The notes beneath the pieces are model-generated. The model was not told the DNA's origin and did no database searches. It saw only the letters and a list, made by a program, of their open reading frames with translations. The position numbers and the translations under genes were made by a program. From an uncultured Latescibacterota bacterium (GTDB taxonomy: Bacteria; Latescibacterota; UBA2968), in contig OX638329.1 in the NCBI GenBank assembly GCA_951812755.1, positions 293,339 to 357,338 of the forward strand: a stretch of 64,000 nt of DNA, in the 5' to 3' direction. Shown piece by piece: positions 18,566 through 61,281 of this stretch. The first letter of the stretch is position 1; each line of letters starts with the position of its first letter.

Positions 18566-19945
18566 ATGACCAGTAAGCGACCAAATATAATCGTATTTTT
18601 AACCGACGACCAGGGCTATGGCGACCTGGGAATCTACGGAAACCCGGACCTGAACACGCCCCACATCGACCGCATCGGGCGGGAAGGCCTGTGTCTGAAC
18701 CAGCACTACACCGCATCGCCAATATGCGCGCCAGCTCGCGCCGCTTTTTTAACCGGACGCTACAACCACCGTGTAGGCGCATTGAGCGTAGAATCCAACC
18801 GCGGACTGGACCGGATTGCACTCGGCGAATCCACAATCGCGGACTTATTCAAAGCAAACGGCTATGCAACGGGAATGGTGGGAAAATGGCACAACGGACT
18901 ACACGACATGCGGTATCATCCGAACAACCGGGGATTCGATGAATTCGCGGGATTCTTGAACGGCGGAATGAATTACTGGAACTGGATCATCGAATACAAC
19001 GGACAGCCAAAGTGGTCAGACGGCCGGTACCTCACCGACGTATTTACACAGGACGCCATCGAATTTATCAAACGGCACAAAACACAGCCGTTTTTTCTCT
19101 ACGTCGCCTACAACGCACCGCACGGACCACTCGAAGCTCCCGAAGAAGATGTCCAGCCCTTTGAAGAAATGGAAAAATTTACCCGGGCCGTATGTCTCAC
19201 CTACGGCATGATCCGGCGGATGGATACCGGAATCGGGCAAATCCTGGACACACTCGAACAACACGGCCTGGCGGAAGATACGATTGTACTCTACACCAGC
19301 GACAACGGGCCTGTCCATCTCGGCAAAGGGGAAAACGACCAGACCCGCTACAACGGACCGTTTCGGGGCATGAAATACGATGTACTCGAAGGCGGAATCC
19401 GCGTACCGGGCCTGATCCGCTGGCCCGCGGGCTTGCCCCAGGGGAAGACGTATGACGGAATGCTGCACTTTACAGACTGGATGCCCACCCTGTTAAACGC
19501 CTGCGGAATCGACATGCAGACGCCCACAGACGGAATGGATGTCATGCCCGCATTACAGGGTGAACCCGAAAAACTACCGACCAAACGATACTGGCAATTC
19601 AACCGCTACGATCCCATTGGCACATGCAATGCCGCGATGAGAGACGGGGAATGGAAGCTCTACTGGCCCCGCATTGAAGAAGCCATGCAAAAAATGAGAT
19701 CGGACAATCCGCCATACCAGAAAAATCACGAAGTCCCGCATTTTCTCATGAACGTGGAAAATCCACCTGTGGAACGAACACTATCACCGCCCGGTGACCC
19801 AGAACTTTACAATATTGAAAACGATCCGCACGAAAACATCAACCTCGCGCAACAACAGCCAGACCGCGCACACCGCATGAAACGCGAACTGGAAACGTGG
19901 TTTGAAGCCGTAGAAGCAGATCGGCGACGCATCGCACCGTTATAA
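18566..19945 (+). CDS. Sulfatase (formylglycine-dependent arylsulfatase family)
   Basis: IIVFLTDDQGYGDLG. The CxPxR formylglycine motif within CAPARAAFLTGR. A GKWH motif. Confidence 0.85.
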   Translation: MTSKRPNIIVFLTDDQGYGDLGIYGNPDLNTPHIDRIGREGLCLNQHYTASPICAPARAAFLTGRYNHRVGALSVESNRGLDRIALGESTIADLFKANGYATGMVGKWHNGLHDMRYHPNNRGFDEFAGFLNGGMNYWNWIIEYNGQPKWSDGRYLTDVFTQDAIEFIKRHKTQPFFLYVAYNAPHGPLEAPEEDVQPFEEMEKFTRAVCLTYGMIRRMDTGIGQILDTLEQHGLAEDTIVLYTSDNGPVHLGKGENDQTRYNGPFRGMKYDVLEGGIRVPGLIRWPAGLPQGKTYDGMLHFTDWMPTLLNACGIDMQTPTDGMDVMPALQGEPEKLPTKRYWQFNRYDPIGTCNAAMRDGEWKLYWPRIEEAMQKMRSDNPPYQKNHEVPHFLMNVENPPVERTLSPPGDPELYNIENDPHENINLAQQQPDRAHRMKRELETWFEAVEADRRRIAPL

Positions 19946-37923: not shown

Positions 37924-37995
37924 TTGAATAGACACCAGATATTTCCATCCTTATATTGCCCCTCCACCCGCATCATCCGCGATCCGGAGCCCTCA

Positions 37996-39948
37996 ATGGC
38001 CATTCGCGAACAACAAACACACACAGCACCACTTCAACGAGCCGTAACCGCGCGGTCAATAGTGATAGGTGCCATGTGCGCGGGTTTCCTGGGATGGGGT
38101 GGACATTTTACGCGACACATTGCACACACCACAAAAATGGCGCAAGATCATCTGCCATGGGGCGCAGTCGTGCCATTTTTGTTGATCGCAGTCGTATTGA
38201 ATAAAGTCCTGGAAAAAGTGCGCCCGCAATGGGTCTTGCGCCCTTCGGAATTGCTGGTCATCTTTTCAATGGGCCTGGTGGCATCGGCATTGCCCAGCTA
38301 TTTTATGGGACATCTGATCGCCAACGTCTCAGCACCATTTTATTTTGCCAACACAGAGAACCGATGGGCAGACGACATACATCCGTATTTGCCCGACTGG
38401 GCGGTCGTGACCGATGTGACGGCTGCGCGGTGGTTTTTTGAAGGACTACCAGCCGGCGCAACCATCCCCTGGGAAATCTGGATAACGCCGATGATCTGGC
38501 GCCTGAGCCTGGTATTTATGATCGGCGTATTTGGATTCTGCGCGGTTTCAATCCTGCGCAAGCAATGGGTGGAACACGAGCGCCTGACCTTTCCATTGAT
38601 GACATTGCCATTGGAACTGGTCAACAGAGAACCGCGAGGATTCTGGCCCGTGGGCATAATGAATCGCCCCGTGTTCTGGTGGGGATTCGCGCTCGCCTCA
38701 TTTCCCATATACTGGAACATGGTTGGATATTTCCAGCCGCTTTTTCCAACCATTCCCCGAGATCTGGGATTGATGGAATTCGGTCAGTATTTCCCGCCGA
38801 TACACACGCGGTTTTATCCAGTAATCATTGGCGTATCGTATTTTATGGACCTGGATGTATTGTTTAGCATTATTGTATTTCACCTGTTATTGACCCTTGA
38901 AATGGGGCTGTTCAACCGCCTGGGGATCGAGATAGGGCCAACCCATGTGTGGCCAGCATCGCAATTTGAAAACTGGCAGGGATTTGGTGCACTGTGCGTG
39001 CTGGTACCGTGGAGCTTGTGGATGGCGCGAGAACATCTAAGAAACGTATTTCGCAAAGCCCTGCTCAAGGCGCGGGATGTTGAAGACTCGGGCGAATTAT
39101 TGTCCTACCGCGCTGCACTTGGCGGACTGCTGGCGAGCGGACTATTTATTCTGGGCTGGTGCGTGACGTCCGGCATGTCGGTCTTTGTCGCCCTCACTTT
39201 TTTGAGCCTCGTGGGCGTGATCTGGTTGGGGATCACGCGCGTCTGCGTGGAGGGCGGCCTGATCAGCAGCCGCATGATACAGGGACAATTTGTCGCATAT
39301 CACCTGCTGGGTCCCGTGAATATCTCGCCATCGGGAATGGCGGCATTTGCACTCACAGAAACATGGCATCACGATATCAAAACCATATTGATGGCCAACC
39401 TCGCCAATGCCACGCGGCTTTACGACAGCATCCGACACGAAAGAATGCGCCTGGTCATCGCGCTCGGATTGGCCATGCTGGTGGTGATAACCACAAGTGC
39501 GTATTATCAAATTTCATCGAGCTATGTGACCGGCGCATTTAATTATGGCGGCATTTACGGTCCTTATGTGCAAAACACTTTTGATACCATAGCCGCTCAT
39601 ATTCGGGACCCCTTTGCCCTCGAGCGCGAGCGCATGCTCATCGCGCTGCTTGGAATGGCAACCACGGCATTGATGCTGGCGTTGCGCTATGTATGGCCCT
39701 GGTGGCCCTTGCATCCGATTGGGTTTGCCGCCGTGACAGCGTATCCGGTCAATCGCATTGTATTTTCCATCTTCTTTGCCTGGTTTTCCAAATTTGTCAT
39801 ATTGCGGGCGGGCGGCATTGATCTATACCGCAAAGCATCGCCGTTTTTCCTGGGGCTTATGGTGGGGTATTTCACGGGCGTCTTTGTGTCATTTCTGGTG
39901 GATTGTATCTGGTTTCCGGGACAGGGACATTCGCTGGCGTTGTACTAG
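37996..39948 (+). CDS. Large polytopic membrane protein, paralog of 32994-34940
   Basis: The start is probably ATG 37996 (MAIREQQ...), aligned with the paralog N-terminus. The track ORF begins at an upstream TTG. Confidence 0.6.
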   Translation: MAIREQQTHTAPLQRAVTARSIVIGAMCAGFLGWGGHFTRHIAHTTKMAQDHLPWGAVVPFLLIAVVLNKVLEKVRPQWVLRPSELLVIFSMGLVASALPSYFMGHLIANVSAPFYFANTENRWADDIHPYLPDWAVVTDVTAARWFFEGLPAGATIPWEIWITPMIWRLSLVFMIGVFGFCAVSILRKQWVEHERLTFPLMTLPLELVNREPRGFWPVGIMNRPVFWWGFALASFPIYWNMVGYFQPLFPTIPRDLGLMEFGQYFPPIHTRFYPVIIGVSYFMDLDVLFSIIVFHLLLTLEMGLFNRLGIEIGPTHVWPASQFENWQGFGALCVLVPWSLWMAREHLRNVFRKALLKARDVEDSGELLSYRAALGGLLASGLFILGWCVTSGMSVFVALTFLSLVGVIWLGITRVCVEGGLISSRMIQGQFVAYHLLGPVNISPSGMAAFALTETWHHDIKTILMANLANATRLYDSIRHERMRLVIALGLAMLVVITTSAYYQISSSYVTGAFNYGGIYGPYVQNTFDTIAAHIRDPFALERERMLIALLGMATTALMLALRYVWPWWPLHPIGFAAVTAYPVNRIVFSIFFAWFSKFVILRAGGIDLYRKASPFFLGLMVGYFTGVFVSFLVDCIWFPGQGHSLALY

Positions 39949-44945: not shown

Positions 44946-46193
44946 TCATCTGTGTTCATCTGTGGTTGCTTTTCCCACCCGTTCCAATTCCTGAACAACA
45001 GCCGTATGCCCTTTTGCCCTCGCCCACATCAGGGCTGTAACTCCATCTTTATCCTCAATTGCGACATCGGCACCGCCTCTTAAAAGCGCGTGGACCGCAT
45101 GGACATGTCCTTCAAACGCGGCGGCCATCAACGGCGTGTGGCCCTCGCGGTCGGGCGCATTGACATTTGCGCCCACTTCCAATAAAAACTCGATTCGTGC
45201 GGTCTCACCATCCCAGGCTGCACCCATCAAAGCCGTATCCCCCATATTGTCCCTGACGTTGAGATCTGCACCACCTGCTATGAGCACCCGCACAATTTGG
45301 CGATGATCTTGTAAAACAGCCCGCATCAAAGGCGTTTCACCAGCACCACCTCTGATATCGGGAATTCCCCCTTTTGTCAGAAGCGTATCGACAATAGCGG
45401 TATGACCTTTGAACGCGGCCAGTAGCAGGGGGGAATCGCCAAAATTGTCTTTGGCATTGGGATCAGCACCCGCATTCAGGAGGGCATCCACCATATCTGT
45501 TTGACCTTCGATTGACGCCCAGGTGAGAGCAGTCCGGTTGTCCTTATCTCTAATATTGGGATCCGCTCCATTTTCCAGCAGGACTTTCACTGCATACGTA
45601 TGGCCTGCAACAACCGCGCTCATCAGAGCCGTGCGCTCGTCGTTGTCCTGCGCGTTGACATCCGCGCCCGCGTCTATCAAAGCTTGAAGCGTAGTTGTGT
45701 GACCTTCTACTGCCGCGGGCATCAACGCAGTGGCGCCATGGGCGTTTTTCAAATGGAGATTCGCGCCTTTTTTCAGGAGAATATTGACGATATCTGTATG
45801 CCCATCAAAGGCGGCGGGCATTAAAGCGGTAGCACCGTGCTTGTCCTGAATATTGGGGTCCGCTTTGCCCAACAAAAGGGCTTGCACCGTCTGGATATGT
45901 CCTTGAAAAGCCGCGACAATCAAAGCCGTTTCCCCGCTCATACCCTGAGCATTGGGATCGGCACTTTTTTCGAGAAGCGCACTGACCACATCTGTATGCC
46001 CACCTCTGGCTGCGACCATCAGCACGGTAGTACCGTATTTGTCCCGAGCATTTGCATTATCGCCAGCACTCAGACGCGCCTGCACACCAGACAGATTTCC
46101 CTTTGCTGCGGCTTCGAGGAGTTGTGTGCCATTGGCATGTGCCGCTGCTGAAAGACAGAGGACAAGGATAAATGTAAATATAATCTTGTACAT
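44946..46193 (-). CDS. Secreted ankyrin-repeat protein (about 11 ANK repeats)
   Basis: Signal peptide MYKIIFTFILVLCLSAAAHA. Tandem ..G.TALM.AA..GH..VV..LL..GAD.N repeats. Confidence 0.9.
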   Translation of the reverse strand: MYKIIFTFILVLCLSAAAHANGTQLLEAAAKGNLSGVQARLSAGDNANARDKYGTTVLMVAARGGHTDVVSALLEKSADPNAQGMSGETALIVAAFQGHIQTVQALLLGKADPNIQDKHGATALMPAAFDGHTDIVNILLKKGANLHLKNAHGATALMPAAVEGHTTTLQALIDAGADVNAQDNDERTALMSAVVAGHTYAVKVLLENGADPNIRDKDNRTALTWASIEGQTDMVDALLNAGADPNAKDNFGDSPLLLAAFKGHTAIVDTLLTKGGIPDIRGGAGETPLMRAVLQDHRQIVRVLIAGGADLNVRDNMGDTALMGAAWDGETARIEFLLEVGANVNAPDREGHTPLMAAAFEGHVHAVHALLRGGADVAIEDKDGVTALMWARAKGHTAVVQELERVGKATTDEHR

Positions 46194-46210
46194 ATAGCAA
46201 AAGTAAAAAT

Positions 46211-46984
46211 TCAATGAACCAGCTTGATACCCCATTCAACACACCGCGTCTCGACTTCATTAAGTGGTGCCATGGTTACGATCACGCCATCAACTGTTTT
46301 ATCGGGGTGCAATGTCCGCATCAACGCCACTTTATCGGCAAAGCGATCCACATCTTCCACCTCGCAAACAGACTTCACCTCAAACACCAGTAAAGTGCTA
46401 TTATAGACCAGAATATCGACTTCATAGCGGCGCCCTGAAGGGCCGATCATGCCATCCACATCCTCCAGGGGCTGTCGCAAACGAACATTTTCAGATAAAA
46501 TATCGTCCCGCCCAAGTACCAATCTCATCGTGCCCGCAACAACATCCTCCAATTTTCTTCCTGACCGCGTTTGGAAACGTCCCACGATCATTTCGACCCA
46601 ATCTCTCAGATCGGAAAACCGCTGATCCATCTGGTCAAAACGTCCATCAATTTTCTCAAACCGCTCATTGACTTCCGAATGAAATGTGTCAAATTCGCCT
46701 CGAAATGAACTCAATTCATCTTCGACTTTCTCAAATCGTTCATCGACTTTCTCAAATCGTTCATCGACTTTCTCAAACTGTTCATCATTTCTCAAACGAA
46801 ATGTGTCAAATTCGCCCCGAAAATCGCGCAGTTCAGAAAGCACGGCTGCTACTTCTTCCTTCGAGGCAAAAGTCCGCATAAAAGCCGTATAGATTCGTTG
46901 TTCCATCTCTGGATGCCGCGCAAGCAAAGCCGGCAATTGTTTCTCAAGCGTCTCTAACAGTTCTTCATCTGTCAACAGGGCCAT
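46211..46984 (-). CDS. Coiled-coil protein with an ERFEKVD heptad-like repeat and a possible C-terminal PD-(D/E)XK-like domain (DUF3782-like)
   Basis: The 21-bp tandem unit TTCATCGACTTTCTCAAATCG (46716-46800) and a nested duplication of about 120 bp encode ..EQFEKVDERFEKVDERFEKVEDE.. plus a duplicated GEFDTF. The C-terminus reads ..YEVDILVYNSTLLVFEVKS... Confidence 0.4.
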   Translation of the reverse strand: MALLTDEELLETLEKQLPALLARHPEMEQRIYTAFMRTFASKEEVAAVLSELRDFRGEFDTFRLRNDEQFEKVDERFEKVDERFEKVEDELSSFRGEFDTFHSEVNERFEKIDGRFDQMDQRFSDLRDWVEMIVGRFQTRSGRKLEDVVAGTMRLVLGRDDILSENVRLRQPLEDVDGMIGPSGRRYEVDILVYNSTLLVFEVKSVCEVEDVDRFADKVALMRTLHPDKTVDGVIVTMAPLNEVETRCVEWGIKLVH

Positions 46985-47159: not shown

Positions 47160-50100
47160 CTATTCCGCAATATCAATAATGGCGATGTTCACAACAACAC
47201 TCACCTGCCCACCCTTACCATCGCTTACGCGCACAATCGGAGAATACCAGTTCCGCTCCTCAAAATTATACGCCTCTTTCGTCGCAAGCTGTCCTGTACT
47301 CGCATCTATCGCAAAATAATCGGCATCTACTCCCCACAGACTATACGTGAGAGATTCACCATCGGCACCCGTCGCTGAGACCGGGTCGCCTATCGCCTGT
47401 CCCGATGCCGTGTTCTCCTCCACAAAGCGCAGCACAGGACGCTCTGAAGTGAAAACCGGCACATGGCTCACCACTTTGCCAAAGTGATCGACAAAGATCA
47501 GAAAATCGGGGATCCCTATCTCATTGTTAATATCCAGATCGTATCTTGCCTCATACCGATCCTGACCCACCCTTAACCCGAACACATCCACAAAGAGCAA
47601 AAAGTCCGGAATATCTACGGTCCCATTCCCATTAAAATCCGGAGAAAGTCCTGTAACCGATAAACCAGGAGAAGACCCCTGTAAGGCAACGCCGAGGAAC
47701 ATCGGTATGGTCTCAGACTGTCCCCCTTGCAACAGCTTAACACGCACCATCCGGATCTCTGTCTCTGAAAACGCATCCGTCGTGCGAAAACGCACCGTCC
47801 CTACAAGACTACTATCCTCCCTTGTTTCTCTTAACGTCATCCCAAGAGTCACAAAACCCTTGCCACCAAGCGCAGACGTACCAGATAAAACAGAACCCAT
47901 CTTAAAGCCTTCATACACCACCTGCGTCCCATCGTATTCAAAGCGCACGGAAAGATCGTTTACTGGAATAGCTTTAAGACCCTTGCCGAAAATCTGGATA
48001 GATGCACTGCCCCCATCAGGAGAAACACCGAGAAAGGACGCGAACTGCTCGCCTTCTGCATCATCCATATCCAGAGAAAAAGAAAAACCATCTTGCGAAA
48101 TGAGCGTACTGGTCTGCACCATACCCTGTTCCGACCACTCGCCATCACCCGTAGAATTGCTCGCCCGGATCTGCACCTCGTATTCGGTATCGGGACTCAG
48201 CCCCAGGATGATGACTCTTGTCCCCCTGACATCTTGTGGACCGTCGATAAACTCATCGGTGCCAACCTGTCGATAGCGCAAGTCATAGTTCGAGATGACC
48301 ACTCTGTCGCCAGTCGGCTTCTGCCAATTTACGACCATACTGGTTGCCAATGCCCTTGGCACCACAGGCGCGTCAGGTGCTGGCGGAGGGGGTGGAGGGG
48401 GTGGAGGGGGCGGCGGAGGCGGTGGTGGCAATGGTCGTGGTGTTGGTGTTGGCGTTGGCGTTGGCGTCGGTGTTGGTGTTGGTGTTGGCGTTGGCGTTGG
48501 CGTCGGTGTTGGTGTTGGTGTTGGCGTTGGTCTCACTGGCCGCGGGACACCGCTGAAGACCCAGGGACGCGCCTGCTTGATCGCCAGGATATTCGCGCTG
48601 GTGATCTTGAACTCGATCTCCATGGCGAAGGGACTGGCATTGTACAGCCCCGCGAAGTGGTTATGGATCACGTCAAGATGTTCTCTTAACTGACGCAGTT
48701 GGCCGTCGCTCATGAGGAGTTGCCCTGGCGGCACCTGGTTGGAGGTCGAAATGACGGTGTAAGGGAGAGAAAAAATATCCGGTTGCAACAGGATTTCCTC
48801 TGGCTTTGAGTGCGCCTCGGGATTGGTGACCAGGTCCTCGCCGATCTGCGTGTTGACGTAGTAGAGTCCGCTTCTGCCGGAGAAGGGGTCAAAGCTGACG
48901 GCCACGCCGTTGGCCAGTTCGTCCTGATAGCTCGGATGGACCAGGATGCCCATCGCGGCGGCCCGATGATCGATGCGATAAAAGTCGCGTTCGACGAAGG
49001 CGCGGAAGTTCCACAGGCTGGCGTACACTTCCTTGAGCGACTTGGCAAGGTCATCCGCGTCCTCGATGGGCCTCTGGCTCTTAGAGTCATAAAGCCCCGC
49101 ACCGTTGAACCCGGGCAGGTCCTCGTTGTTAGTGCTGGAACGGTAACGCCGGTTGATGCCCGCGGGGAACCCCTTATTCATCTCCACGATCGCGTCAATG
49201 ATCCACTGGGGGGTCTCCGCGTCCTCAATGGCTTTGCGTAGTTTCTTGAGCGAATCCGCCTGTGCATCGAAGTTCGTCTGGAAATCGTGATCCTTCATCA
49301 TGGTCTCAATTCGGATGTAGAACCCGTTGTGTTTCATGAACTCGTCGTAGAAATAGAACGGGATCGCAAATCCGTCGGGCACCGTCCCCGCCGGGAAACC
49401 CAGAGTCCCCAGTACCGCCACGTTGGCCGCCTTGACGCCGAATGCGTCCCAGTCCTCGAAGCCGATCTCACTGAGCGGGGTGATCGACGTGACCGAGAGG
49501 TCCCGTTGCGGGGTCTGTTTGTGGGCAGGCCGGGAAGACTCATAGTGGGCATCGACTTCCGCGGGCGTAGCGGCGCGCAGCGTGTAGCTGCCCTCGGTCA
49601 CTTCGTACCGTACGTAGCGGCCGATGAGAGGCCCAATGGTGGGATGATCGTCAAGGGCGGTGGGGATAAAGGCGTTGGGAATACCGTCCTGAATGGCGCG
49701 CAGGTTGACGTGTGACAGCGGCGTTTGGAACACGGTGGTGACGATGCCGGCGACACGGGGCAACTCGTTGGGCAGCGCCTCGTAGATCACCACGTCGCGC
49801 GGGTGGGGCCGCTCGTCCAGTCCCATAACCCGCAGCCGGCCAACCCCTTCCCCCTGGTTCAACGCCAAGAAGCCGGTTTTGGGAGAGATGTCTTCGTTGA
49901 ACACGAGGGAAACGCGGGATGCTCGCAAGAGCGGCAAAGAGGACTGGTAAGACTGAAGCTGCACGTTACCTATGTGAAGGGCCAGGTTGTCCTCGATCAG
50001 CGGCATGCTGGCGGCGAGAACTGTATAGGTGAGGGCCACCATGTTGAAGCTGAAGGAGTTATCGGCTGGGGATAGCTTGTAACGGTACATTCCCGGGCTA

Positions 50101-50786
50101 CCGTCGGGGGCGGCCTGTTCTGGATCATATTCGATATCACCCCGGACCACCCTGATGTCTATTTCGATATCTGCGGCATCCAGGAATGAGTGATGGTAGG
50201 GGTGCGTCTCGGCGTTCAGAAAGTAAACACGCGGGCGGGCGGTGTCCCTGTCGAGCAGCAGGAACTTGGTGTGCTTCCGGTAGTACGCAAGTGTCCCGAA
50301 TACTTCCTGATTCGGAAGGACCACGGCGCCGTCGTTGAGGTCGATGCTGCCGGCAGGGTTCACCGGGTTCTTGCCCACCGGGTCCCCGAGTTCAGTGACA
50401 TCGTCGATGCAATCGCCATCGACGTCGGCCGGATCGGAAATGAGATACTTCTCCACCCGGTAGCGCTCCTTCGGCAACGCCTCCACGTTCTCGGACAGCG
50501 TGGTCGAGCCTGCTTCACCCAACTTCACCAGGACCGGCAAATCCATCTCTGTGCCATTTACATCGTGCTTCACATACAGCACGAAGTACTCATCCGTCGT
50601 AGATGTGACTACGATGGGAACTGCCGTCACCCCCACCGCCACGGGCGTCGGGTTATAACCACCTCCTTCACACGGATCTGCCAATGTCCGGAACGACGGA
50701 AAGAAACCCTGTCCTTTGACCGCGGTGATGAACAAACTTATGGACAGCACCGTCGCCGCAATGAACCGTACGCTTGTTAATGACAT
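47160..50786 (-). CDS. Large secreted multidomain protein. Signal peptide, D-rich Ca-binding-like region, a possible PEP-utilizing-enzyme mobile (His) domain-like segment, a PPDK_N-like ATP-grasp (PEP/pyruvate-binding) domain, a (PT)n/Pn linker, FN3, a dockerin-like repeat and a cadherin-like C-terminus.
   Basis: FGVKAANVAVLGTLGFPAGTVPDGFAIPF and RYRSSTNNEDLPGFNGAGLYDS match the two hallmark motifs of PF01326 (GGKaanL..., vAVRSSAtaEDlp.aSFAGq). ..ILAIKQARP closes that domain. TPLSHVNLRAIQDGIP resembles the PEP-utilizers phospho-His motif. The linker is (PT)14 then P17. The C-terminal 400 aa are paralogous to gene 1-1900. Confidence 0.75.
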   Translation of the reverse strand: MSLTSVRFIAATVLSISLFITAVKGQGFFPSFRTLADPCEGGGYNPTPVAVGVTAVPIVVTSTTDEYFVLYVKHDVNGTEMDLPVLVKLGEAGSTTLSENVEALPKERYRVEKYLISDPADVDGDCIDDVTELGDPVGKNPVNPAGSIDLNDGAVVLPNQEVFGTLAYYRKHTKFLLLDRDTARPRVYFLNAETHPYHHSFLDAADIEIDIRVVRGDIEYDPEQAAPDGSPGMYRYKLSPADNSFSFNMVALTYTVLAASMPLIEDNLALHIGNVQLQSYQSSLPLLRASRVSLVFNEDISPKTGFLALNQGEGVGRLRVMGLDERPHPRDVVIYEALPNELPRVAGIVTTVFQTPLSHVNLRAIQDGIPNAFIPTALDDHPTIGPLIGRYVRYEVTEGSYTLRAATPAEVDAHYESSRPAHKQTPQRDLSVTSITPLSEIGFEDWDAFGVKAANVAVLGTLGFPAGTVPDGFAIPFYFYDEFMKHNGFYIRIETMMKDHDFQTNFDAQADSLKKLRKAIEDAETPQWIIDAIVEMNKGFPAGINRRYRSSTNNEDLPGFNGAGLYDSKSQRPIEDADDLAKSLKEVYASLWNFRAFVERDFYRIDHRAAAMGILVHPSYQDELANGVAVSFDPFSGRSGLYYVNTQIGEDLVTNPEAHSKPEEILLQPDIFSLPYTVISTSNQVPPGQLLMSDGQLRQLREHLDVIHNHFAGLYNASPFAMEIEFKITSANILAIKQARPWVFSGVPRPVRPTPTPTPTPTPTPTPTPTPTPTPTPTPTPTPRPLPPPPPPPPPPPPPPPPAPDAPVVPRALATSMVVNWQKPTGDRVVISNYDLRYRQVGTDEFIDGPQDVRGTRVIILGLSPDTEYEVQIRASNSTGDGEWSEQGMVQTSTLISQDGFSFSLDMDDAEGEQFASFLGVSPDGGSASIQIFGKGLKAIPVNDLSVRFEYDGTQVVYEGFKMGSVLSGTSALGGKGFVTLGMTLRETREDSSLVGTVRFRTTDAFSETEIRMVRVKLLQGGQSETIPMFLGVALQGSSPGLSVTGLSPDFNGNGTVDIPDFLLFVDVFGLRVGQDRYEARYDLDINNEIGIPDFLIFVDHFGKVVSHVPVFTSERPVLRFVEENTASGQAIGDPVSATGADGESLTYSLWGVDADYFAIDASTGQLATKEAYNFEERNWYSPIVRVSDGKGGQVSVVVNIAIIDIAE

Positions 50787-51132: not shown

Positions 51133-53976
51133 TCACGGAATTGGAATATTGAGATCAAACCTCTGGGCGAGCCACTGATAGTAGAAACGCTGTGCAGTGT
51201 CTTGCAGAATCTGGTCTTTCCATCCAGCGACAAGACGTTCGACCTCGGCAGTATCGCCGGCCATACACAGCGCGTAAAGATACAGGTAGCGTAGTGCCGG
51301 ATCGGCAGACTGAGCGCGCTGGTAATACTGTGCGGCAAGAGTATAGTCGCGCTCGACCAGCGCGCGCGCAGATAGATAGGGAAGATAGGGCGTTTCCGCA
51401 TCGCCCTTTTTCAAGCGGGTATCAACCGCATAGAGCAAATCGTCCTGAATCTGAAGATGCCACAGCGGGAGCGTCCGCAAATCGGTCTGCGTGAGAAGCG
51501 CGTGAAGCGTAGCGATGCGAGTGCCCTGATCATGTATTTCATCCGCCTGGGAAATTAGTGCAGCCTCGAGAAGGCGCTGTGCTTCAAAATAATCGAGCGT
51601 GCGCCTCCGCATGTCAGGAGGCCATGCATGGCGAATAAACGTGCTCTTTTCAAAACGCTCGCGGGTCAGCAGGGGATTCATCCACCGATCGTAAAATGTC
51701 CGATGGGGTTCGCGGTTGAAAAACCCCACAGAAAGGCGTTTGGGATAATTATCCACCAGCGGCGGGGTATCGCGCGTGAGCGCGTTGAGATGGTCCGCAT
51801 CAGACATAAAGAGCGCACCGAGTTGCTCGGGTTGCTCCAAACCGAGGGCGCGAAGTTCGGAACGCACGACAGGATCGCGCCACTGTCGGCTAAAAGAGAC
51901 CTCAGATGGGGAATAGGACGCATTGCGAGAGCCAGCGAGCATCCAGTTAAAACCCGCCCCAGCCCAAAGAGAGGCGTCCTCAAAAACATTGCAAAACGCG
52001 CGGATAATAGCTTTTGTATCCTCGGGCTTGAGATGGTGAACCGGGAGCCAGTACGTGCATAAGCCCCCTTCTGAGAGACGGTTGTAGATGAGCTGGAAAT
52101 ACTCCTGTGAATAGAGATTGACCACGCCGGCCTGCCTGGGCGGCGGGGGTTCACTGGTAATGAGATCGTAGCGGTTTTGCGTCGTCTGCAAAAAATAACG
52201 CCCATCGTCAATATGCACCCGCACCCGGGGATCCTGGAGCGGTTCTGTATCGGGATCGGGATAGACGATGCGATTCATCTCGAGCACATCGCGGGAAATA
52301 TCGACCACATCGATATGCTCGAGCGAGCGCGTATCCGTAAGCGCTTTGGCTGTAGAACCCACCCCAAAGCTGATCAACAGGGCATTTTTGAGATCGGGAT
52401 GAAGTGCGACGGGCCAGTACACATAGAGCTTCATATAGCGGCGATTGACCAGGCTGCTGGACGCCATCGAAAAGCCATCCGTGAGCATCTGGTACGCAAC
52501 TGGCACGCCAAAATAAGCACCTTCCAAATAGATGATCGTCTCCGTGCGCCCTTCGCGGGTACCGGCGATTTTCCATGTATCGGGATAGCCAAAGCGCCGC
52601 GCGACAAAGGTGAAGTACGCGTTCTCCATTCGGCCAAAGGGAAAAAGGATCAGAATCAAGAGATACGCGGCAAAGAGGACATAATACACCCGGTATTTCC
52701 GGCGCAGACCCGAAACGAGAAAAGCGACAACACCGTAGCAGACTGCCAGAACAAAGGTGGCGATTTCCATACCCAAAAGCGGCAACAATCCAAAACCCGC
52801 AATAAGCGCACCCAGACCAGCACCAATGGTATTGGCGAGCGTGAGCAAGCCAGCGGCCCGGGTATCGGGCTGGATGTGGCGGCTGAGCGCGGCACCGGTG
52901 AAGGTAAACAGAATACCCGAGAGAAGAGATACGGGAAACATCAGAGCCAGAGATAGCGTCAGGATTTGCGATATGTTGCCAATATACCCCGTGCCAAAAG
53001 GCGTCACCACATAGACAAAGATCAGGTAAGTGACAACGGTGAGCATCCCTGAACCGAGGGCGAGGGCGGGAAGCACGCGAAATGCCCCGGCATGGCGGCG
53101 CAACCACCGGGCGGCCAACCCACCGCCCACACCAATACCCGTGAGCACCACAGACAGCATCACGGCAAAAGCAAGCGTAGTCGCCGGCACAAAAAGGTGG
53201 AGGAAACGGAACCAGACCACCTCCAGAGCCAGAAGAACAGCCCCCGAAAGAAAAGCAGCACCCAACAAGCACCAGGTCCGGAAGGTCGGTCGCCCGTCCA
53301 ATTTTGGGGAAAGAGCCTCGCGCGAACCAGAGAAATAGCGCGCAATACCGAAAGCACCCCCAGCGGCGATGAGATCCAACAGCGCGGCGACCCATGCCGT
53401 GCCCAGAACACCGACCCATTCAATGATGACAACCTCTCCCGCAACCGCACCGACCACGGCACCCAGCGTATTACACGCATAGAGCCGACCGAGCGCGATC
53501 CCAAAACCACCTCCATCGCCAGACACAGAAGCGTCATCTCGCACGCGCAATGCCCTGACCAGAATGGGCAGCGTAGCCCCCATCGCAGTCGTCGGCACGA
53601 TGAGAACGGCAAAACTCAGCAGCAAACGCAACGCGTTGAGCAACAGGGGTTGGTCGAGAAAAGATGCGAGAAAAGCAGACAGCCCCGCGGTAAGCGCTGG
53701 CAATATCCACACAATGACCACACCCGATAGGGCAATGGCGATTTCCAACAGTGCATAGACGCGCACAGGCCGTACAATTCGCCTGCCCAAACGAGCAGAT
53801 AGACCATTGCCCAGAGCCAAACCGCCCATAAATGCGGCCAGCACCAGACTGGATGCCGTAATACTATTGCCAAATGTAAGCCCTGCCTGGCGAAACCACA
53901 GGGTTTCAAACAGCAGCGCGGCTGCGCCCGAAAGAAAGAAAACAGCGTACAGGATAGGGGATAAAATACGAGTCAT
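51133..53976 (-). CDS. Fused MFS / spermidine-synthase-like membrane protein with a C-terminal TPR-like helical region
   Basis: Polytopic N-terminus. PABS-fold region (..LISFGVGSTAKAL..IDVVDI..). A C-terminal helical repeat domain. The start is probably the internal ATG (complement 53974-53976, MTRILSPILYAVFFLSG). Confidence 0.65.
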   Translation of the reverse strand: MTRILSPILYAVFFLSGAAALLFETLWFRQAGLTFGNSITASSLVLAAFMGGLALGNGLSARLGRRIVRPVRVYALLEIAIALSGVVIVWILPALTAGLSAFLASFLDQPLLLNALRLLLSFAVLIVPTTAMGATLPILVRALRVRDDASVSGDGGGFGIALGRLYACNTLGAVVGAVAGEVVIIEWVGVLGTAWVAALLDLIAAGGAFGIARYFSGSREALSPKLDGRPTFRTWCLLGAAFLSGAVLLALEVVWFRFLHLFVPATTLAFAVMLSVVLTGIGVGGGLAARWLRRHAGAFRVLPALALGSGMLTVVTYLIFVYVVTPFGTGYIGNISQILTLSLALMFPVSLLSGILFTFTGAALSRHIQPDTRAAGLLTLANTIGAGLGALIAGFGLLPLLGMEIATFVLAVCYGVVAFLVSGLRRKYRVYYVLFAAYLLILILFPFGRMENAYFTFVARRFGYPDTWKIAGTREGRTETIIYLEGAYFGVPVAYQMLTDGFSMASSSLVNRRYMKLYVYWPVALHPDLKNALLISFGVGSTAKALTDTRSLEHIDVVDISRDVLEMNRIVYPDPDTEPLQDPRVRVHIDDGRYFLQTTQNRYDLITSEPPPPRQAGVVNLYSQEYFQLIYNRLSEGGLCTYWLPVHHLKPEDTKAIIRAFCNVFEDASLWAGAGFNWMLAGSRNASYSPSEVSFSRQWRDPVVRSELRALGLEQPEQLGALFMSDADHLNALTRDTPPLVDNYPKRLSVGFFNREPHRTFYDRWMNPLLTRERFEKSTFIRHAWPPDMRRRTLDYFEAQRLLEAALISQADEIHDQGTRIATLHALLTQTDLRTLPLWHLQIQDDLLYAVDTRLKKGDAETPYLPYLSARALVERDYTLAAQYYQRAQSADPALRYLYLYALCMAGDTAEVERLVAGWKDQILQDTAQRFYYQWLAQRFDLNIPIP

Positions 53977-54380
53977 GAATTTTACAATGATATTGTGATT
54001 TGTGTAGGGGACGGTCCCTGTGCCGTCCGTCAAACAACGCGTTTCCAAACATTCTGTCAAGGGCTATCCGTTCAAATGTTAGCACCAAAATATCCTTGCA
54101 CGACTTCCTATAACTGCATACCTTGATGCAAAAGCCGCGTGAACACCTCCGCGAATGATATTTCTTTTGGCACGCTCGTCCTCGACATATTTGTGTCGTG
54201 TGGTGCTGCGTGCCTTTCTCTAGTTCATCGCGGCAAAAGAGACTACCCATATCAATCTTACTTGCGATTGTCATTGCGGCATGGTTTTAGCCGCAATCCA
54301 GAAGGTTTTGCTGTTCACTTCTATATGTCGCAAGACTTACGCCACGATGCACTAGTACTAATGCCATTGGAAACCCTGCT

Positions 54381-59762: not shown

Positions 59763-61205
59763 TCACGCACCGCCATAAGCTCTCGCAAAATAGGTCTGGA
59801 ACCCCTCTGGCCCGGGCCAGCCATCGAAAAGACGGCAATTCTCGGGCACCTCGCCTTCTGCACCGTTTTTGAGCCAGTCGATCAGAATGGGATCAGCACC
59901 CCGGCGCTCGAGTTCAGAAAGCCCAGCGGTTTGCAGGTTCTGGACGCGGTCGGGATATTCCGCCGCCGTGTTGTCCAGCGACCCATAAGGCGTGAGCATG
60001 CAGTCTTCTGGCCTGGGCTGCCATTCCAGATATCCCTCCTGATCGAACACAGTGAAAAATCCCCGCTGTTTTGCCCACCCCCGGGCAGTGCCCGCAAGCG
60101 CGAGTTGCCGCATTCCCGTACTCCCCTCCCGTGCGGCGGCGAGAATATCCTGGCTGTCTATATCCCCCGGAATTGGCGCACTCGCCAGATTGGCGACAGT
60201 AGCGTAAAAATCCTGCGGTTGAAAAATAGCTGAACTGCGTCCCCCGTCGCCTTCGGGAGTTTTGATAATGAGCGGGATGTGAATCTCCTGCTCGTACACA
60301 GGCGCGTACTTGCCAAAGCGACCGCGCTCACCTACATTGGTACCGTGATCCCCAGCAATAATGATCGCGGTATTTTTGCTCAAGCCAGTGGCGTCAAAGG
60401 CTTCGAGAAAACGCCCAAAGCAATGATCCATCCATGTAACCTTGGCGGCATAACTCGCTTTGAGGCGCGCTCTGGCTTCATCGGGCAAATTGGGATTGTT
60501 GCGTCCCCCGCCCTGAAAAGCGCGGGGATCAAGCCGCCCATCATAACCGGGAGTTTTGTCGTATTTCAGCATAAAAGCCGGGGGCACGTCCCACGGTTCG
60601 TGGGGATCAAAGCAATCAATCCAGAGAAAGAAATTTTCCCGCCGCGCATTATCCCGCAAGAATTGGGCTGCCGTATTGAACAATTTGGCGCAATTCCAAT
60701 CGTCTAAATTTGTGCGTCCCCGGTTGGTACGGGCATACGTATAGTTGTGTTTTGTCAGAGCCGCGTCTTCTCCCAGAACATCGAATACGGGATCTTTGCA
60801 CCAGTTGCTGGGCCATTGTGCTTCATCATCCATCCATGCGCGGTCAACTTCTGCACCGCGAATAAACGTCCATGTGTGAAACGGATAATCAAATGCGTGC
60901 CCGCCGTTGACGAGATGAGGCGTATCGTGAATGAGTTGTGTCGCATATCCCGCTTCGCCCAGCACAGACGGAAGAGAGCGCGTGTCAAAAGGCAGGGGTT
61001 TCCAGGTGTGGAACGGACTGCCGTATTTTCCGGTCATAACATCCGTGCGATAGGGAATGGTGGGAAAACTGGCGGCAAAAGCGCGGTCAAAACACCATGA
61101 CTGCGCGGATAGACGATCGAGATTGGGCGTCTCAATCCAGTCATTTCCGTTAGCACCAATATAGTCATAGCGCATCGTATCAATGATAATGAGAACGATA
61201 TTCAT
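59763..61205 (-). CDS. Sulfatase-like hydrolase/transferase of the alkaline-phosphatase superfamily, with a non-canonical motif in place of CxPxR
   Basis: NIVLIIIDTMRYD metal-site start. ..SFPTIPYRTDVMTG in the position of the formylglycine motif (no Cys). The start is ATG at complement 61203-61205 with GGGAG SD. Confidence 0.55.
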   Translation of the reverse strand: MNIVLIIIDTMRYDYIGANGNDWIETPNLDRLSAQSWCFDRAFAASFPTIPYRTDVMTGKYGSPFHTWKPLPFDTRSLPSVLGEAGYATQLIHDTPHLVNGGHAFDYPFHTWTFIRGAEVDRAWMDDEAQWPSNWCKDPVFDVLGEDAALTKHNYTYARTNRGRTNLDDWNCAKLFNTAAQFLRDNARRENFFLWIDCFDPHEPWDVPPAFMLKYDKTPGYDGRLDPRAFQGGGRNNPNLPDEARARLKASYAAKVTWMDHCFGRFLEAFDATGLSKNTAIIIAGDHGTNVGERGRFGKYAPVYEQEIHIPLIIKTPEGDGGRSSAIFQPQDFYATVANLASAPIPGDIDSQDILAAAREGSTGMRQLALAGTARGWAKQRGFFTVFDQEGYLEWQPRPEDCMLTPYGSLDNTAAEYPDRVQNLQTAGLSELERRGADPILIDWLKNGAEGEVPENCRLFDGWPGPEGFQTYFARAYGGA

Positions 61206-61281
61206 AGAATCTCCCTTCACAACGGGCGAAAGGTTTTTCGCCCCTACCATTTATCTGTGTGTATCTGCGTTCATCTGCGGA

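What the first reader, a model, noticed from the sequence alone, without database searches (positions are those of the whole stretch)
47160..50786. Secreted surface protein carrying a PEP-utilizing-enzyme-type ATP-grasp (PPDK_N) domain, and possibly a phospho-His swivel-like segment placed before it
After a signal peptide and an Asp-rich region, the protein contains both hallmark motifs of the PEP/pyruvate-binding nucleotide domain (GVKAANVAVL...VPDGFAIPF and RSSTNNEDLPGFNGAG). About 100 aa upstream it has TPLSHVNLRAIQDGIP, resembling the phospho-histidine motif of the PEP-utilizers mobile domain. That domain order is the reverse of PEP synthase and rifampin phosphotransferase. The protein is then tethered by a (PT)n/Pn linker to FN3, dockerin-like and cadherin-like modules. 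An extracellular or periplasmic ATP/PEP-dependent phosphotransferase head on an adhesin-like stalk is an unusual architecture of unknown function.
Basis: partly seen in the sequence, partly recalled or inferred. Interest (0 to 1): 0.6.

Follow-up and report, generated by a model that had tools for sequence, protein, structure and literature searches.

The report
Secreted GWD-like dikinase on adhesin stalk
This gene encodes a secreted, stalk-mounted enzyme head with every catalytic residue of an ATP-splitting "dikinase" like the one plants use to phosphorylate starch; the unnamed family is shared at high identity among unrelated marine-sponge symbionts, bacterial and archaeal, so it may act on ATP or polymers outside the cell.

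Summary
ORF 47160-50786 (-) encodes a 1208-aa protein: signal-peptide-like leader, conserved 720-aa head, PT/poly-Pro linker, FN3, dockerin-like and cadherin-like modules. PF01326 is significant (E 2.4e-25), and the ATP-grasp residues I infer to be catalytic are ≥98% conserved in ~300 relatives. The TPLSH segment is not PF00391 by HMM. A whole-head profile nevertheless aligns co-linearly with authentic alpha-glucan water dikinases (hhalign 93.5%, E 2.3e-7), with invariant His359 on the GWD catalytic His. The "reversed" order is therefore the known GWD order (acceptor domain, His domain, ATP domain). It is not a GWD: CBM45 and the central domain are absent, the N-terminal ~300 aa match nothing known, and the nucleotide-loop motif sits in the PEP-synthase position. 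An extracytoplasmic location is supported by leaders, a conserved Cys pair, a DxDxDG motif and T9SS sorting domains in Bacteroidota members. The family is large (1211 clusters at 50% identity), annotated only as hypothetical, and exchanged among sponge-symbiont phyla (Binatia vs Latescibacterota 88.8%; Cenarchaeum vs Acidobacteriota 68.7%). Best reading: an active surface ecto-dikinase, acceptor unknown. A new variant of a known kind.

The parts
50709..50786 (-). Signal-peptide-like leader (residues 1-26: MSLTSVRFIAATVLSISLFITAVKG|QG)
   Evidence: The sequence has a basic n-region, a 15-aa hydrophobic core and a small-residue c-region. Homologues have equivalent leaders ending in AxA or AQG. 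179 of 265 family proteins have a strongly hydrophobic N-terminal segment, against 10 of 74 in an intracellular GWD control set. No dedicated signal-peptide predictor was available.
50331..50708 (-). N-terminal beta-rich segment plus conserved Asp-rich DxDxDG-type putative Ca-binding loop (residues ~27-152; C39 and C126 form a conserved Cys pair)
   Evidence: D121, D123, G124, D125, D128, D129 and E132 are invariant in 30 sequences. C39 and C126 co-occur in 157 of 170 heads, and 144 of 169 heads contain exactly two Cys. The AF2 model is of low confidence here (pLDDT 40-70).
49809..50330 (-). Unassigned alpha/beta domain (residues ~153-326), the candidate acceptor-binding domain
   Evidence: AF2 pLDDT is about 80-88. 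There is no significant PDB fold match (best Foldseek E 0.054, TM<0.4), no Pfam hit in any of 57 members and no PDB profile hit. The domain always accompanies the His and ATP domains, even in the ~45%-identical Bacteroidota members.
49533..49808 (-). Phosphohistidine-type (GWD-like) domain, residues ~327-418, with His359 in TPLSH359VNLRA
   Evidence: His359 is invariant in 70 aligned sequences and present in 294 of 297 family HSPs. In the AF2 model it is the first residue of a short helix (model H333-340), pLDDT 80-95. hhalign puts it in register with the GWD catalytic His inside the PF22973 span. HMMER alone finds neither PF00391 nor PF22973.
48561..49442 (-). PPDK_N-type ATP-grasp nucleotide-binding domain (residues 449-742)
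   Evidence: PF01326 E 2.4e-25. Foldseek hits: PEP synthase 2ols E 5e-12, RPH 5hv1 E 1e-11, HpeI 9goj, PPDK 2r82. HMMER alignments to PEP synthase and RPH cover the GxK and RSSxxxEDLP motifs. K452, R549, E555, D556, E723, E725, Q738 and R740 are each conserved in >=98% of ~300 relatives.
48381..48533 (-). (PT)n then poly-Pro linker (residues 752-802)
   Evidence: Seen in the translation. The DNA shows tandem repeats of period 6/12/36 at 48438-48531 and period 9 at 48382-48422.
48126..48356 (-). Fibronectin type III domain (residues 811-887)
   Evidence: PF00041 E 2.4e-13. PDB titin and RPTP FN3 domains match with E down to 1e-15.
47667..48107 (-). Unassigned region (residues ~894-1040)
   Evidence: No Pfam hit. 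Not modelled.
47463..47648 (-). Dockerin-like double Ca-loop module (residues 1047-1108)
   Evidence: PDB dockerin 2y3n_B E 5.6e-4. Pfam Dockerin_1 E 0.15, below threshold. NCBIfam dockerin_GC E 0.96. This is a weak assignment.
47205..47423 (-). Cadherin-like domain (residues 1122-1194)
   Evidence: PF00028 at 29.7 bits against a cutoff of 28.8 when the C-terminal piece is scanned alone; E 2.7e-6 in the whole protein.

Best explanation
The protein is a secreted, surface-tethered, catalytically competent His-dependent dikinase. SHOWN: it has a PPDK_N ATP-grasp domain in which the positions I infer to be catalytic are almost perfectly conserved; directly before that domain is a phosphohistidine-type domain with an invariant His, co-linear with the His-then-ATP core of glucan water dikinases; before that is a conserved domain of unknown fold; the head sits behind a leader peptide and on a stalk of extracellular-type modules. 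INFERRED mechanism, by analogy with GWD, PEP synthase and RPH: the ATP-grasp domain binds ATP; His359 on its short helix attacks the beta-phosphate, releasing AMP and Pi and forming phospho-His; the His domain then pivots to the N-terminal domain and passes the phosphate to a hydroxyl acceptor, or to water. INFERRED site of action: outside the cell, in the sponge mesohyl for this subfamily. The FN3, dockerin and cadherin modules would hold the head on the cell surface or against a macromolecular target, much as CBM45 modules hold GWD on starch. The acceptor is unknown. My ranking is (a) a host or microbial extracellular glycan or matrix polymer, (b) water, that is, net removal of extracellular ATP directly to AMP, (c) a small phenolic or antibiotic molecule.
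For: ATP-grasp domain: PF01326 E 2.4e-25 over residues 449-742. Foldseek matches to PEP synthase, RPH, HpeI and PPDK run from E 5e-12 to 1.7e-5. HMMER alignments show GVK452AAN over GGKNAN and R549SSTNNEDLP over RSSATAEDLP. Conservation over ~300 family HSPs: H359 294/297, K452 298/299, R549 299/299, E555 299/299, D556 298/299, E723 as E or D 292/293, E725 290/293, Q738 291/292, R740 290/292. This level of constraint at only 45-75% overall identity argues for retained catalysis. GWD relationship: the whole-head profile against a profile of authentic GWDs gives hhalign probability 93.5%, E 2.3e-7, 307 columns, our residues 305-656 against GWD 211-546. The alignment runs from the PF22973 pHis domain into the ATP domain, with TPLSHVNLRA over DVLSHVAVRA. 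The His segment alone aligns to the same span with E 0.003. The nucleotide loop YRSSTNNEDLPGFNGAGLYDS is 16/21 identical to the bacterial GWD loop FRSDSNGEDLPGFAGAGLYDS. GWD1 has the order central (acceptor) domain, His domain, ATP domain, with the catalytic His on a short helix (PMC13553574). In our AF2 model His359 starts a short helix. Extracytoplasmic location: leader peptides; a conserved two-Cys pair; an invariant DxDxDG-type motif; FN3, cadherin, Calx-beta, PKD and Ig-type partner domains; T9SS type A sorting domains in Bacteroidota members (P0257 TIGR04183 37.4 bits against a cutoff of 23). Plausible ATP source: sponges signal with extracellular ATP through P2X receptors; ADP is active and AMP is inert (PMC11883242).
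Against: No activity, localisation or expression data exist. HMMER finds neither PF00391 nor PF22973 in the His segment, and the His-only profile match is statistically weak (probability 10.6%). The His segment lost model confidence when it was predicted without the ATP domain. The AF2 head model is only moderate (pLDDT 72.9, pTM 0.59). ATP is scarce outside cells, and no ATP-dependent dikinase is known to work there. No conserved neighbouring gene hints at a substrate. The N-terminal domain has no identifiable fold, so calling it an acceptor domain rests only on its position and its constant co-occurrence with the core. Signal peptides were judged by a heuristic, not by a trained predictor. 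The mapping of the C-terminal Glu/Gln/Arg motif onto PPDK D321, E323, Q335 and R337 rests on my recall of PPDK biochemistry plus the spacing seen in the GWD alignment, not on a printed alignment.
Confidence: 0.6

Rival explanations
1. The head is an ecto-ATP-consuming enzyme whose real acceptor is water. It converts extracellular ATP straight to AMP + 2 Pi, either to blunt the host's purinergic (P2X) signalling and danger sensing or to harvest phosphate. This is a special case of the best explanation with no polymer substrate.
For: GWD itself transfers the beta-phosphate to water as a side route (PMC13553574). Sponges use extracellular ATP and ADP as signals, and AMP is inert (PMC11883242). 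A dikinase bypasses ADP. The family also occurs in free-living marine Flavobacteriales with T9SS export, where scavenging dissolved ATP for phosphate would make sense. No conserved partner gene or substrate clue was found.
Against: A ~300-aa N-terminal region that is conserved and always present is hard to justify if water is the only acceptor. Simpler ecto-nucleotidases and apyrases already exist for this job. There is no direct evidence.
Confidence: 0.2
2. The head is a small-molecule phosphotransferase of the RPH, phenolic-phosphate-synthetase or HpeI kind. It would inactivate or modify an antibiotic or a phenolic sponge or microbial metabolite at the cell surface.
For: The closest sequence and structure matches of the ATP-grasp domain are PEP synthase, rifampin phosphotransferase and HpeI. 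The nucleotide-loop motif is in the PEP-synthase/RPH position, not the GWD position. Sponge holobionts are rich in bioactive phenolics (general knowledge).
Against: No RPH-type substrate-binding domain is present, and the domain order and His motif are GWD-like. NCBIfam RPH models score 17-63 bits against cutoffs of 999-1700. Detoxifying enzymes that need ATP are normally cytoplasmic. Adhesin stalks suggest a macromolecular or surface target.
Confidence: 0.1
3. The head is a catalytically inert binding module: a pseudo-enzyme that uses a former nucleotide or acceptor site to bind a host ligand, on an adhesin.
For: ATP is scarce outside cells. The protein context is that of an adhesin. Many extracellular pseudo-enzymes exist (general knowledge).
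Against: Every residue I infer to be catalytic, including the phospho-acceptor His and the Mg/phosphate ligands, is kept in >=98% of ~300 sequences spread over bacteria and archaea. Pseudo-enzymes typically lose such residues.
Confidence: 0.07
4. The head is a delivered toxin or effector that depletes ATP inside a target cell, either a competitor or a host cell, carried on a giant polymorphic surface protein.
For: The head occurs at variable positions in proteins of up to 3769 aa, sometimes twice, in several copies per genome, and is horizontally mobile. These features are shared with polymorphic toxin systems.
Against: No conserved immunity-like neighbour was found. The head is usually N-terminal rather than a C-terminal toxin tip. 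No translocation or processing domains were recognised.
Confidence: 0.03

Closest known systems
Alpha-glucan, water dikinase and phosphoglucan, water dikinase (GWD1/PWD, EC 2.7.9.4/2.7.9.5; Pfam PF22973 GWD1_pHisD + PF01326), including the bacterial homologues found here in Planctomycetes, Nitrospirales and Verrucomicrobia
   Same: The order of parts is the same: an acceptor-side domain, then the His domain, then a C-terminal ATP-binding domain. The His motif is shared (LSHVx[VL]RA on a short helix). The nucleotide loop is near-identical (NxEDLxGxxGAGLYDS). The WASxWNxRA helix and the [DE]xE...QxR end motif are shared. The profile-profile alignment is co-linear over 307 columns (PMC13553574).
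   Different: There is no CBM45 or CBM20 and no ~440-aa central domain; an unrelated ~300-aa N-terminal region takes their place. PF22973 is not detected by HMMER. The nucleotide-loop motif lies before the WASxW helix here and after it in GWDs. This protein is secreted or surface-anchored rather than plastidial or cytoplasmic. The substrate is unknown.
PEP synthase / pyruvate, water dikinase (PpsA, EC 2.7.9.2) and PPDK
   Same: The ATP-grasp domain is homologous and co-linear over its whole length, with the same motif order. A dikinase chemistry through phospho-His is inferred.
   Different: The domain order is the reverse of ATP, His, PEP/pyruvate TIM barrel. There is no PEP-utilizers_C domain. 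PF00391 is not detected. NCBIfam PEP-synthase models score 65-72 bits for this protein against cutoffs of 598-740.
Rifampin phosphotransferase (RPH), phenolic phosphate synthetase and HpeI-type small-molecule dikinases
   Same: These are among the best structural matches for the ATP-grasp domain (5hv1 E 1e-11, 5hv6_A TM 0.72 normalised to the target, 9goj E 4e-11). In those enzymes the phosphate goes to a hydroxyl acceptor, which is what I infer here.
   Different: There is no RIF-binding-type domain. The His domain precedes the ATP domain instead of ending the protein. The protein has an extracellular context.
Eukaryotic-like and adhesin-type surface proteins of sponge symbionts (ankyrin, FN3, cadherin, dockerin-bearing proteins)
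   Same: The stalk modules and the taxa are the same, and a secreted ankyrin protein is encoded next door.
   Different: Those proteins are described as binding modules. This one carries an intact ATP-dependent enzyme head.

Membership tests
Pfam PF01326 PPDK_N (ATP-grasp nucleotide-binding domain of dikinases) | HMM score above the gathering threshold over most of the model | tested here: met
   89.9 bits against a cutoff of 27, E 2.4e-25, model positions 4-309 of 328.
Pfam PF01326 PPDK_N (ATP-grasp nucleotide-binding domain of dikinases) | ATP-grasp fold | tested here: met
   The AF2 model matches 2ols, 5hv1, 5hv6_A (TM 0.72 normalised to the target), 9goj and 2r82 with E from 5e-12 to 1.7e-5, and then other ATP-grasp enzymes.
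Pfam PF01326 PPDK_N (ATP-grasp nucleotide-binding domain of dikinases) | Catalytic Lys, Arg loop and C-terminal acidic/Gln/Arg Mg-phosphate ligands (PPDK K22, R92, D321, E323, Q335, R337; residue numbers recalled from the literature) | tested here: met
   K452 and R549 are aligned to PEP synthase and RPH by HMMER. E723-x-E725 ...(12)... Q738-x-R740 has the same pattern as GWD D651-x-E653 ...(11)... Q665-x-R667. All are conserved in >=98% of ~300 relatives. The mapping of the C-terminal motif is by pattern, not by a printed alignment.
His-dependent dikinase (phospho-His swivel mechanism) | A small His domain carrying a conserved phospho-acceptor His at the start of a short helix | tested here: met
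   His359 is invariant in 70 sequences and present in 294/297. It is the first residue of model helix 333-340, pLDDT 80-95. It is in register with the GWD catalytic His in hhalign.
His-dependent dikinase (phospho-His swivel mechanism) | Match to PF00391 (PEP-utilizers mobile domain) | tested here: not met
   No hit at E<=10 for the isolated segment. No PDB sequence hit with a 66-sequence profile.
His-dependent dikinase (phospho-His swivel mechanism) | ATP-dependent autophosphorylation on His and transfer of the beta-phosphate | not testable with these tools
   This requires biochemistry.
Alpha-glucan/phosphoglucan water dikinase (GWD/PWD) | Domain order: acceptor-side domain, His domain, C-terminal ATP domain | tested here: met
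   Co-linear hhalign alignment, our residues 305-656 against GWD 211-546. The GWD order is as described in PMC13553574.
Alpha-glucan/phosphoglucan water dikinase (GWD/PWD) | PF22973 GWD1_pHisD detected by HMM | tested here: not met
   It is found in real GWDs with E from 4e-51 to 6e-38 but not in this protein. It is reached only at profile-profile level (E 0.003 alone; within a 93.5% alignment for the whole head).
Alpha-glucan/phosphoglucan water dikinase (GWD/PWD) | Starch-binding CBM45 or CBM20 modules and the GWD central domain | tested here: not met
   No Pfam, PDB-sequence or fold match for residues 27-330. The hhalign alignment does not extend upstream of the His domain.
Alpha-glucan/phosphoglucan water dikinase (GWD/PWD) | GWD-type motif order in the ATP domain (RSDSNGEDL...GAGLYDS loop after the WASKWNERA helix) | tested here: not met
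   Here the loop (residues 549-568) precedes VYASLWNFRAF (587-597), as in PEP synthase. In plant and bacterial GWDs it follows that helix.
PEP synthase (NCBIfam TIGR01418 / NF005057) | Full-length equivalog score | tested here: not met
   65-72 bits against cutoffs of 598-740, covering only the N-terminal ~220 model positions.
Rifampin phosphotransferase (NCBIfam NF041857 / NF000283) | Full-length equivalog score | tested here: not met
   44.6 bits against 999 and 17.3 bits against 1700.
Secreted / cell-surface protein | N-terminal signal peptide | tested here: inconclusive
   A heuristic only: the sequence has a typical n/h/c layout, and leaders are conserved in homologues. No trained predictor was available.
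Secreted / cell-surface protein | Independent export or sorting signals in family members | tested here: met
   T9SS type A sorting domain in P0257 (Pfam E 1.2e-11; TIGR04183 37.4 bits against a cutoff of 23) and a borderline one in P0255. There is also a conserved Cys pair.

The most novel reading that the evidence does not exclude
The head is a new class of symbiosis factor: a horizontally mobile, surface-displayed ecto-dikinase, shared by bacterial and archaeal sponge symbionts, that uses the host's own extracellular ATP. It would either phosphorylate host matrix or cell-surface glycans, loosening or marking them as GWD does for starch, or convert the purinergic signal ATP directly to inert AMP and so silence host responses. 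This would be the first ATP-dependent His-dikinase shown to work outside a cell.
Probability: 0.25. Interest if true: 0.85.

Novelty: new variant of a known kind. Interest (0 to 1): 0.68.

Why it matters
Dikinases of this type are known only as intracellular enzymes: PEP synthase, PPDK, starch GWD/PWD, rifampin and phenol phosphotransferases. Here the full catalytic apparatus is preserved, under strong constraint, in a module that is exported, mounted on adhesin stalks, multiplied within genomes and exchanged among at least six bacterial phyla and an archaeon living in sponges. Public sources call it only "hypothetical protein", although it comprises more than a thousand 50%-identity clusters. 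If it is active outside the cell, three things follow. It would define a new extracellular use of ATP in animal-microbe symbiosis. It would offer a testable link to sponge purinergic signalling or to remodelling of host matrix. It would extend the GWD-type architecture well beyond starch metabolism. It also supplies an unassigned ~300-aa domain likely to hold the acceptor site.

Tried and rejected
1. PF00391 as the identity of the His segment: rejected at HMM level. A 66-sequence profile of the segment also finds nothing in PDB sequences.
2. Fold assignment of the N-terminal domain: the top Foldseek PDB hits are ADF/cofilin/gelsolin folds at E 0.05-1 and TM<0.4, which I treat as noise. Pfam scanning of 57 members gave only scattered single hits. 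The PDB profile search found nothing.
4. A conserved operon partner: clustering ORFs from 78 loci found no recurrent neighbour except further copies of the family and, in one Dehalococcoidia subgroup, a LuxR-type regulator.
5. Synteny with the closest loci, to name the window's lineage: none. The exact protein is not on record in the contig index.
6. Phage carriage as the HGT vehicle: no relative in IMG/VR.
7. A short C-terminal ATP-grasp query against PDB, to print the E-x-E/Q-x-R alignment: no hit. A regex hunt for canonical PEP synthase or PPDK genes in the DNA I held: none.
8. Literature searches for the family in sponge-symbiont papers and for secreted water dikinases: nothing describing it.
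9. Membership of GWD proper: rejected, because CBM45 and the central domain are missing and the nucleotide-loop motif is in a different sequence position.

Full report
OBSERVATION. The finding's coordinates are exactly one ORF: 47160..50786 on the minus strand, 1208 aa. All quoted motifs are present at the stated spacing. Pfam finds PPDK_N (PF01326) at residues 449-742 (E 2.4e-25, 89.9 bits against a cutoff of 27), fn3 at 811-887 (E 2.4e-13) and Cadherin at 1122-1194. A dockerin-like module at 1047-1108 is weakly supported (PDB 2y3n_B E 5.6e-4; Pfam Dockerin_1 E 0.15). The PT/poly-Pro linker is also a DNA tandem repeat. NCBIfam models for PEP synthase, RPH and PPDK match only the N-terminal ~220 positions, at scores far below their cutoffs. 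The protein therefore contains a dikinase-type ATP-grasp domain but is none of those enzymes.

THE HEAD IS A CONSERVED MODULE OF A VERY LARGE, UNNAMED FAMILY. A search with residues 1-746 returned more than 2281 proteins. The best 120 are 62-73% identical over ~95% of the head, and their C-terminal extensions are completely different (FN3, cadherin, cadherin-like, Calx-beta, PKD, Ig-like). The exhaustive HMMER search gave 1211 clusters (50% identity) at E<=1e-30. The whole 720-aa head matches as one unit, at any position in proteins of up to 3769 aa, and sometimes twice in one protein (P0121). No source names any sponge-type member. The divergent (~45%) branch, from marine Crocinitomicaceae and Cryomorphaceae, is annotated "hypothetical protein". 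No curated NCBIfam model covers the family.

THE ATP-GRASP DOMAIN LOOKS ACTIVE. The AlphaFold model of the head (pLDDT 72.9) matches PEP synthase 2ols (E 5e-12), rifampin phosphotransferase 5hv1/5hv6 (E ~1e-11; TM 0.72 normalised to the isolated RPH ATP domain), HpeI 9goj and PPDK, followed by other ATP-grasp enzymes. HMMER alignments place GVK452AAN on GGKNAN and R549SSTNNEDLP on RSSATAEDLP of PEP synthase and RPH. The C-terminal E723-I-E725 ... Q738-A-R740 block has the same pattern and spacing as D651-x-E653 ... Q665-x-R667 in authentic GWDs. From my knowledge of Clostridium symbiosum PPDK biochemistry, it also matches D321/E323/Q335/R337 there. Across ~300 family HSPs these residues are kept in 98-100% of sequences.

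THE HIS SEGMENT. PF00391 does not match, and a 66-sequence profile of residues 296-445 finds nothing in PDB sequences. Even so, His359 is invariant in 70 aligned sequences and present in 294 of 297 family HSPs. In the full-head model it is the first residue of a short helix inside a small beta/alpha domain modelled at pLDDT 80-95. When that region was modelled without the ATP domain it lost confidence. I had recalled that the starch enzyme GWD carries its catalytic His in LSHVSVRARNG and places the His domain before the ATP domain. A 2026 JBC paper confirms the order CBM45 x2, central domain, His domain (H992 on the short helix H992-G1000, preceded by V989 and L990), then ATP domain (PMC13553574). 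I used my recalled potato sequence only as bait to retrieve authentic GWDs from plants, Planctomycetes, Nitrospirales and Verrucomicrobia. These carry PF22973 GWD1_pHisD plus PF01326. Profile-profile comparison of our His segment with a 28-sequence GWD alignment lands exactly on the PF22973 span with the two His motifs in register, but weakly (E 0.003, probability 10.6%). The whole-head profile aligns co-linearly from the His domain through the linker into the ATP domain (probability 93.5%, E 2.3e-7, 307 columns).

NOT A GWD. Residues 27-330 have no counterpart in GWD or anywhere else I could search. This region comprises a beta-rich segment, an invariant DVDGDCIDDxxE loop and a confidently modelled alpha/beta domain. 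I found no Pfam hit in 57 members, no PDB sequence hit and no significant fold hit. It nevertheless always accompanies the core, which is why I propose it as the acceptor-side domain; that is an inference. There is also an unexplained difference in topology. The most conserved block in both families is the nucleotide loop (ours YRSSTNNEDLPGFNGAGLYDS; bacterial GWD FRSDSNGEDLPGFAGAGLYDS, 16/21 identical). In our protein it lies before the WASxWNxRA helix, as in PEP synthase and RPH. In GWDs it lies after that helix. The family thus combines a GWD-like His domain and loop sequence with a PEP-synthase-like motif order.

LOCATION. Several lines of evidence point outside the cytoplasm:
- the leader MSLTSVRFIAATVLSISLFITAVKG|QG, with equivalent leaders in homologues;
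- a hydrophobic N-terminal segment in 179 of 265 family proteins, against 10 of 74 GWD controls;
- exactly two cysteines in most heads, co-occurring as a pair in 157 of 170;
- a DxDxDG-type motif;
- exclusively extracellular-type partner domains;
- T9SS sorting domains in the Bacteroidota branch.
The Cenarchaeum copy lies inside a 2163-aa repeat- and FN3-rich protein. No trained signal-peptide predictor was available.

ECOLOGY AND MOBILITY. In GTDB species representatives the head occurs in 543 stretches. The best 78 loci are MAGs of Latescibacterota, Dehalococcoidia and other Chloroflexota, Acidobacteriota, Binatia, Thermodesulfobacteriota, Acidimicrobiia (Ca. Poriferisodalis, Poriferisocius, Aldehydirespirator) and the archaeon Cenarchaeum. 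Poriferisodalaceae and Aldehydirespiratoraceae are documented families containing sponge symbionts (PMC11706023), and Cenarchaeum is, to my knowledge, a sponge symbiont. Identities cut across taxonomy: Binatia vs Latescibacterota 88.8%, Thermodesulfobacteriota vs Ca. Azophilus 84%, Cenarchaeum vs Terriglobia 68.7%. Many genomes hold several copies, often in tandem. No conserved neighbour, no phage carriage and no synteny with the window were found. The window itself is ordinary chromosome with a sponge-symbiont flavour: a secreted ankyrin protein next door, TPR proteins, two sulfatases, a sulfate permease, ribonucleotide reductase and an aminoacyl-tRNA synthetase.

MECHANISM. What is shown: an intact ATP-grasp site, an invariant His on a GWD-like His domain immediately upstream, a constant N-terminal domain, and export signals. 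What is inferred: ATP binds the grasp domain; His359 takes the beta-phosphate, releasing AMP + Pi; the His domain pivots to the N-terminal domain and passes the phosphate to a hydroxyl acceptor or to water; the stalk holds the head on the cell (dockerin) or against a target (FN3, cadherin), as CBM45 does for GWD. The ATP supply is the weak point. Sponges do use extracellular ATP as a signal through P2X receptors, with ADP active and AMP inert (PMC11883242). A dikinase that turns ATP directly into AMP would therefore have both an ATP source and a possible physiological effect. The rivals are a pure ecto-ATP remover, a small-molecule phosphotransferase, an inert binding module and a delivered ATP-depleting toxin. 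They are listed with their evidence; the inert-module reading is disfavoured by the near-perfect conservation of the residues I infer to be catalytic.

VERDICT. It is a new variant of a known kind of enzyme, in an unexpected place, with an unknown acceptor. Interest 0.68.

Noticed in passing
window 549-568 aa of the ORF (DNA ~49083-49142) versus GWD proteins P0267 and P0335: The most conserved block of both families, the nucleotide loop R-S-x-x-N-x-E-D-L-x-G-x-x-G-A-G-L-Y-D-S, is 16/21 identical between this family and bacterial GWDs. It sits before the WASxWNxRA helix here (as in PEP synthase and RPH) and after it in GWDs. This implies a sequence rearrangement of the ATP-grasp domain in one lineage. 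I have no explanation for it.
   Followed up: partly
window 44946-46235 (-): The gene immediately downstream encodes a 429-aa protein that is almost entirely ankyrin repeats (Ank_2 E 7e-81) behind a hydrophobic leader. This is the classic eukaryotic-like protein of sponge symbionts.
   Followed up: partly
window 46211-46984 (-): A 257-aa ORF between the ankyrin gene and the dikinase gene has no Pfam match. It carries a repeated ERFEKVDERFEKV / RFEKIDGRFDQMDQRF coiled-coil-like motif in its first half.
   Followed up: no
window 51133-54060 (-): The upstream gene encodes a 975-aa polytopic membrane protein with a spermidine-synthase-like domain (PF01564, E 4e-16). A 29%-identical relative lies next to the head gene in Latescibacterota locus L001 (12900-13646). 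This could be coincidence or a loose association.
   Followed up: partly
window 32994-34940 (+) and 37924-39948 (+): Two paralogous DUF6785 + DUF6784 proteins (E ~1e-106 to 1e-111) lie 3 kb apart, flanked by TPR proteins and a PMT_2-like glycosyltransferase. This looks like a duplicated cassette of unknown function.
   Followed up: no
window 18566-19945 (+), 59763-61250 (-), 22795-25017 (-): There are two sulfatases, one with an N-sulphoglucosamine sulphohydrolase C-terminal domain, and a SulP/STAS sulfate permease. These would fit use of sulfated host glycans.
   Followed up: no
L025:8337-8783 and L041:10739-11173: Some extra copies of the head in other genomes carry in-frame stop codons within the His segment. 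They are either decaying paralogues or long-read assembly errors.
   Followed up: no
L013, L021, L024, L025, L031, L038, L042, L057, L059, L062, L068; OZ240239.1 (L003 and L008, ~20 kb apart): The head gene is frequently present in two to four copies within 10-20 kb in the same genome (for example three N-domain hits in L038). The copies range from 67% to 91% identical, which indicates repeated local duplication as well as transfer.
   Followed up: partly
P0121 (3227 aa) and P0122 (2025 aa): Some family proteins contain two complete dikinase heads in one polypeptide, separated by FN3, Calx-beta and Ig-like modules.
   Followed up: no
P0267 (Rhododendron GWD-like isoform X2), residue 273: This plant GWD-like sequence has Tyr in place of the catalytic His (LSYVSVRARN). 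It may be a pseudo-enzyme isoform or a sequence error.
   Followed up: no
window residues ~894-1040 of the ORF (DNA 47667-48107): A ~150-aa region between the FN3 and the dockerin-like module has no family match. Because it sits next to a dockerin-like module, a cohesin-like or other beta-sandwich fold is worth testing.
   Followed up: no
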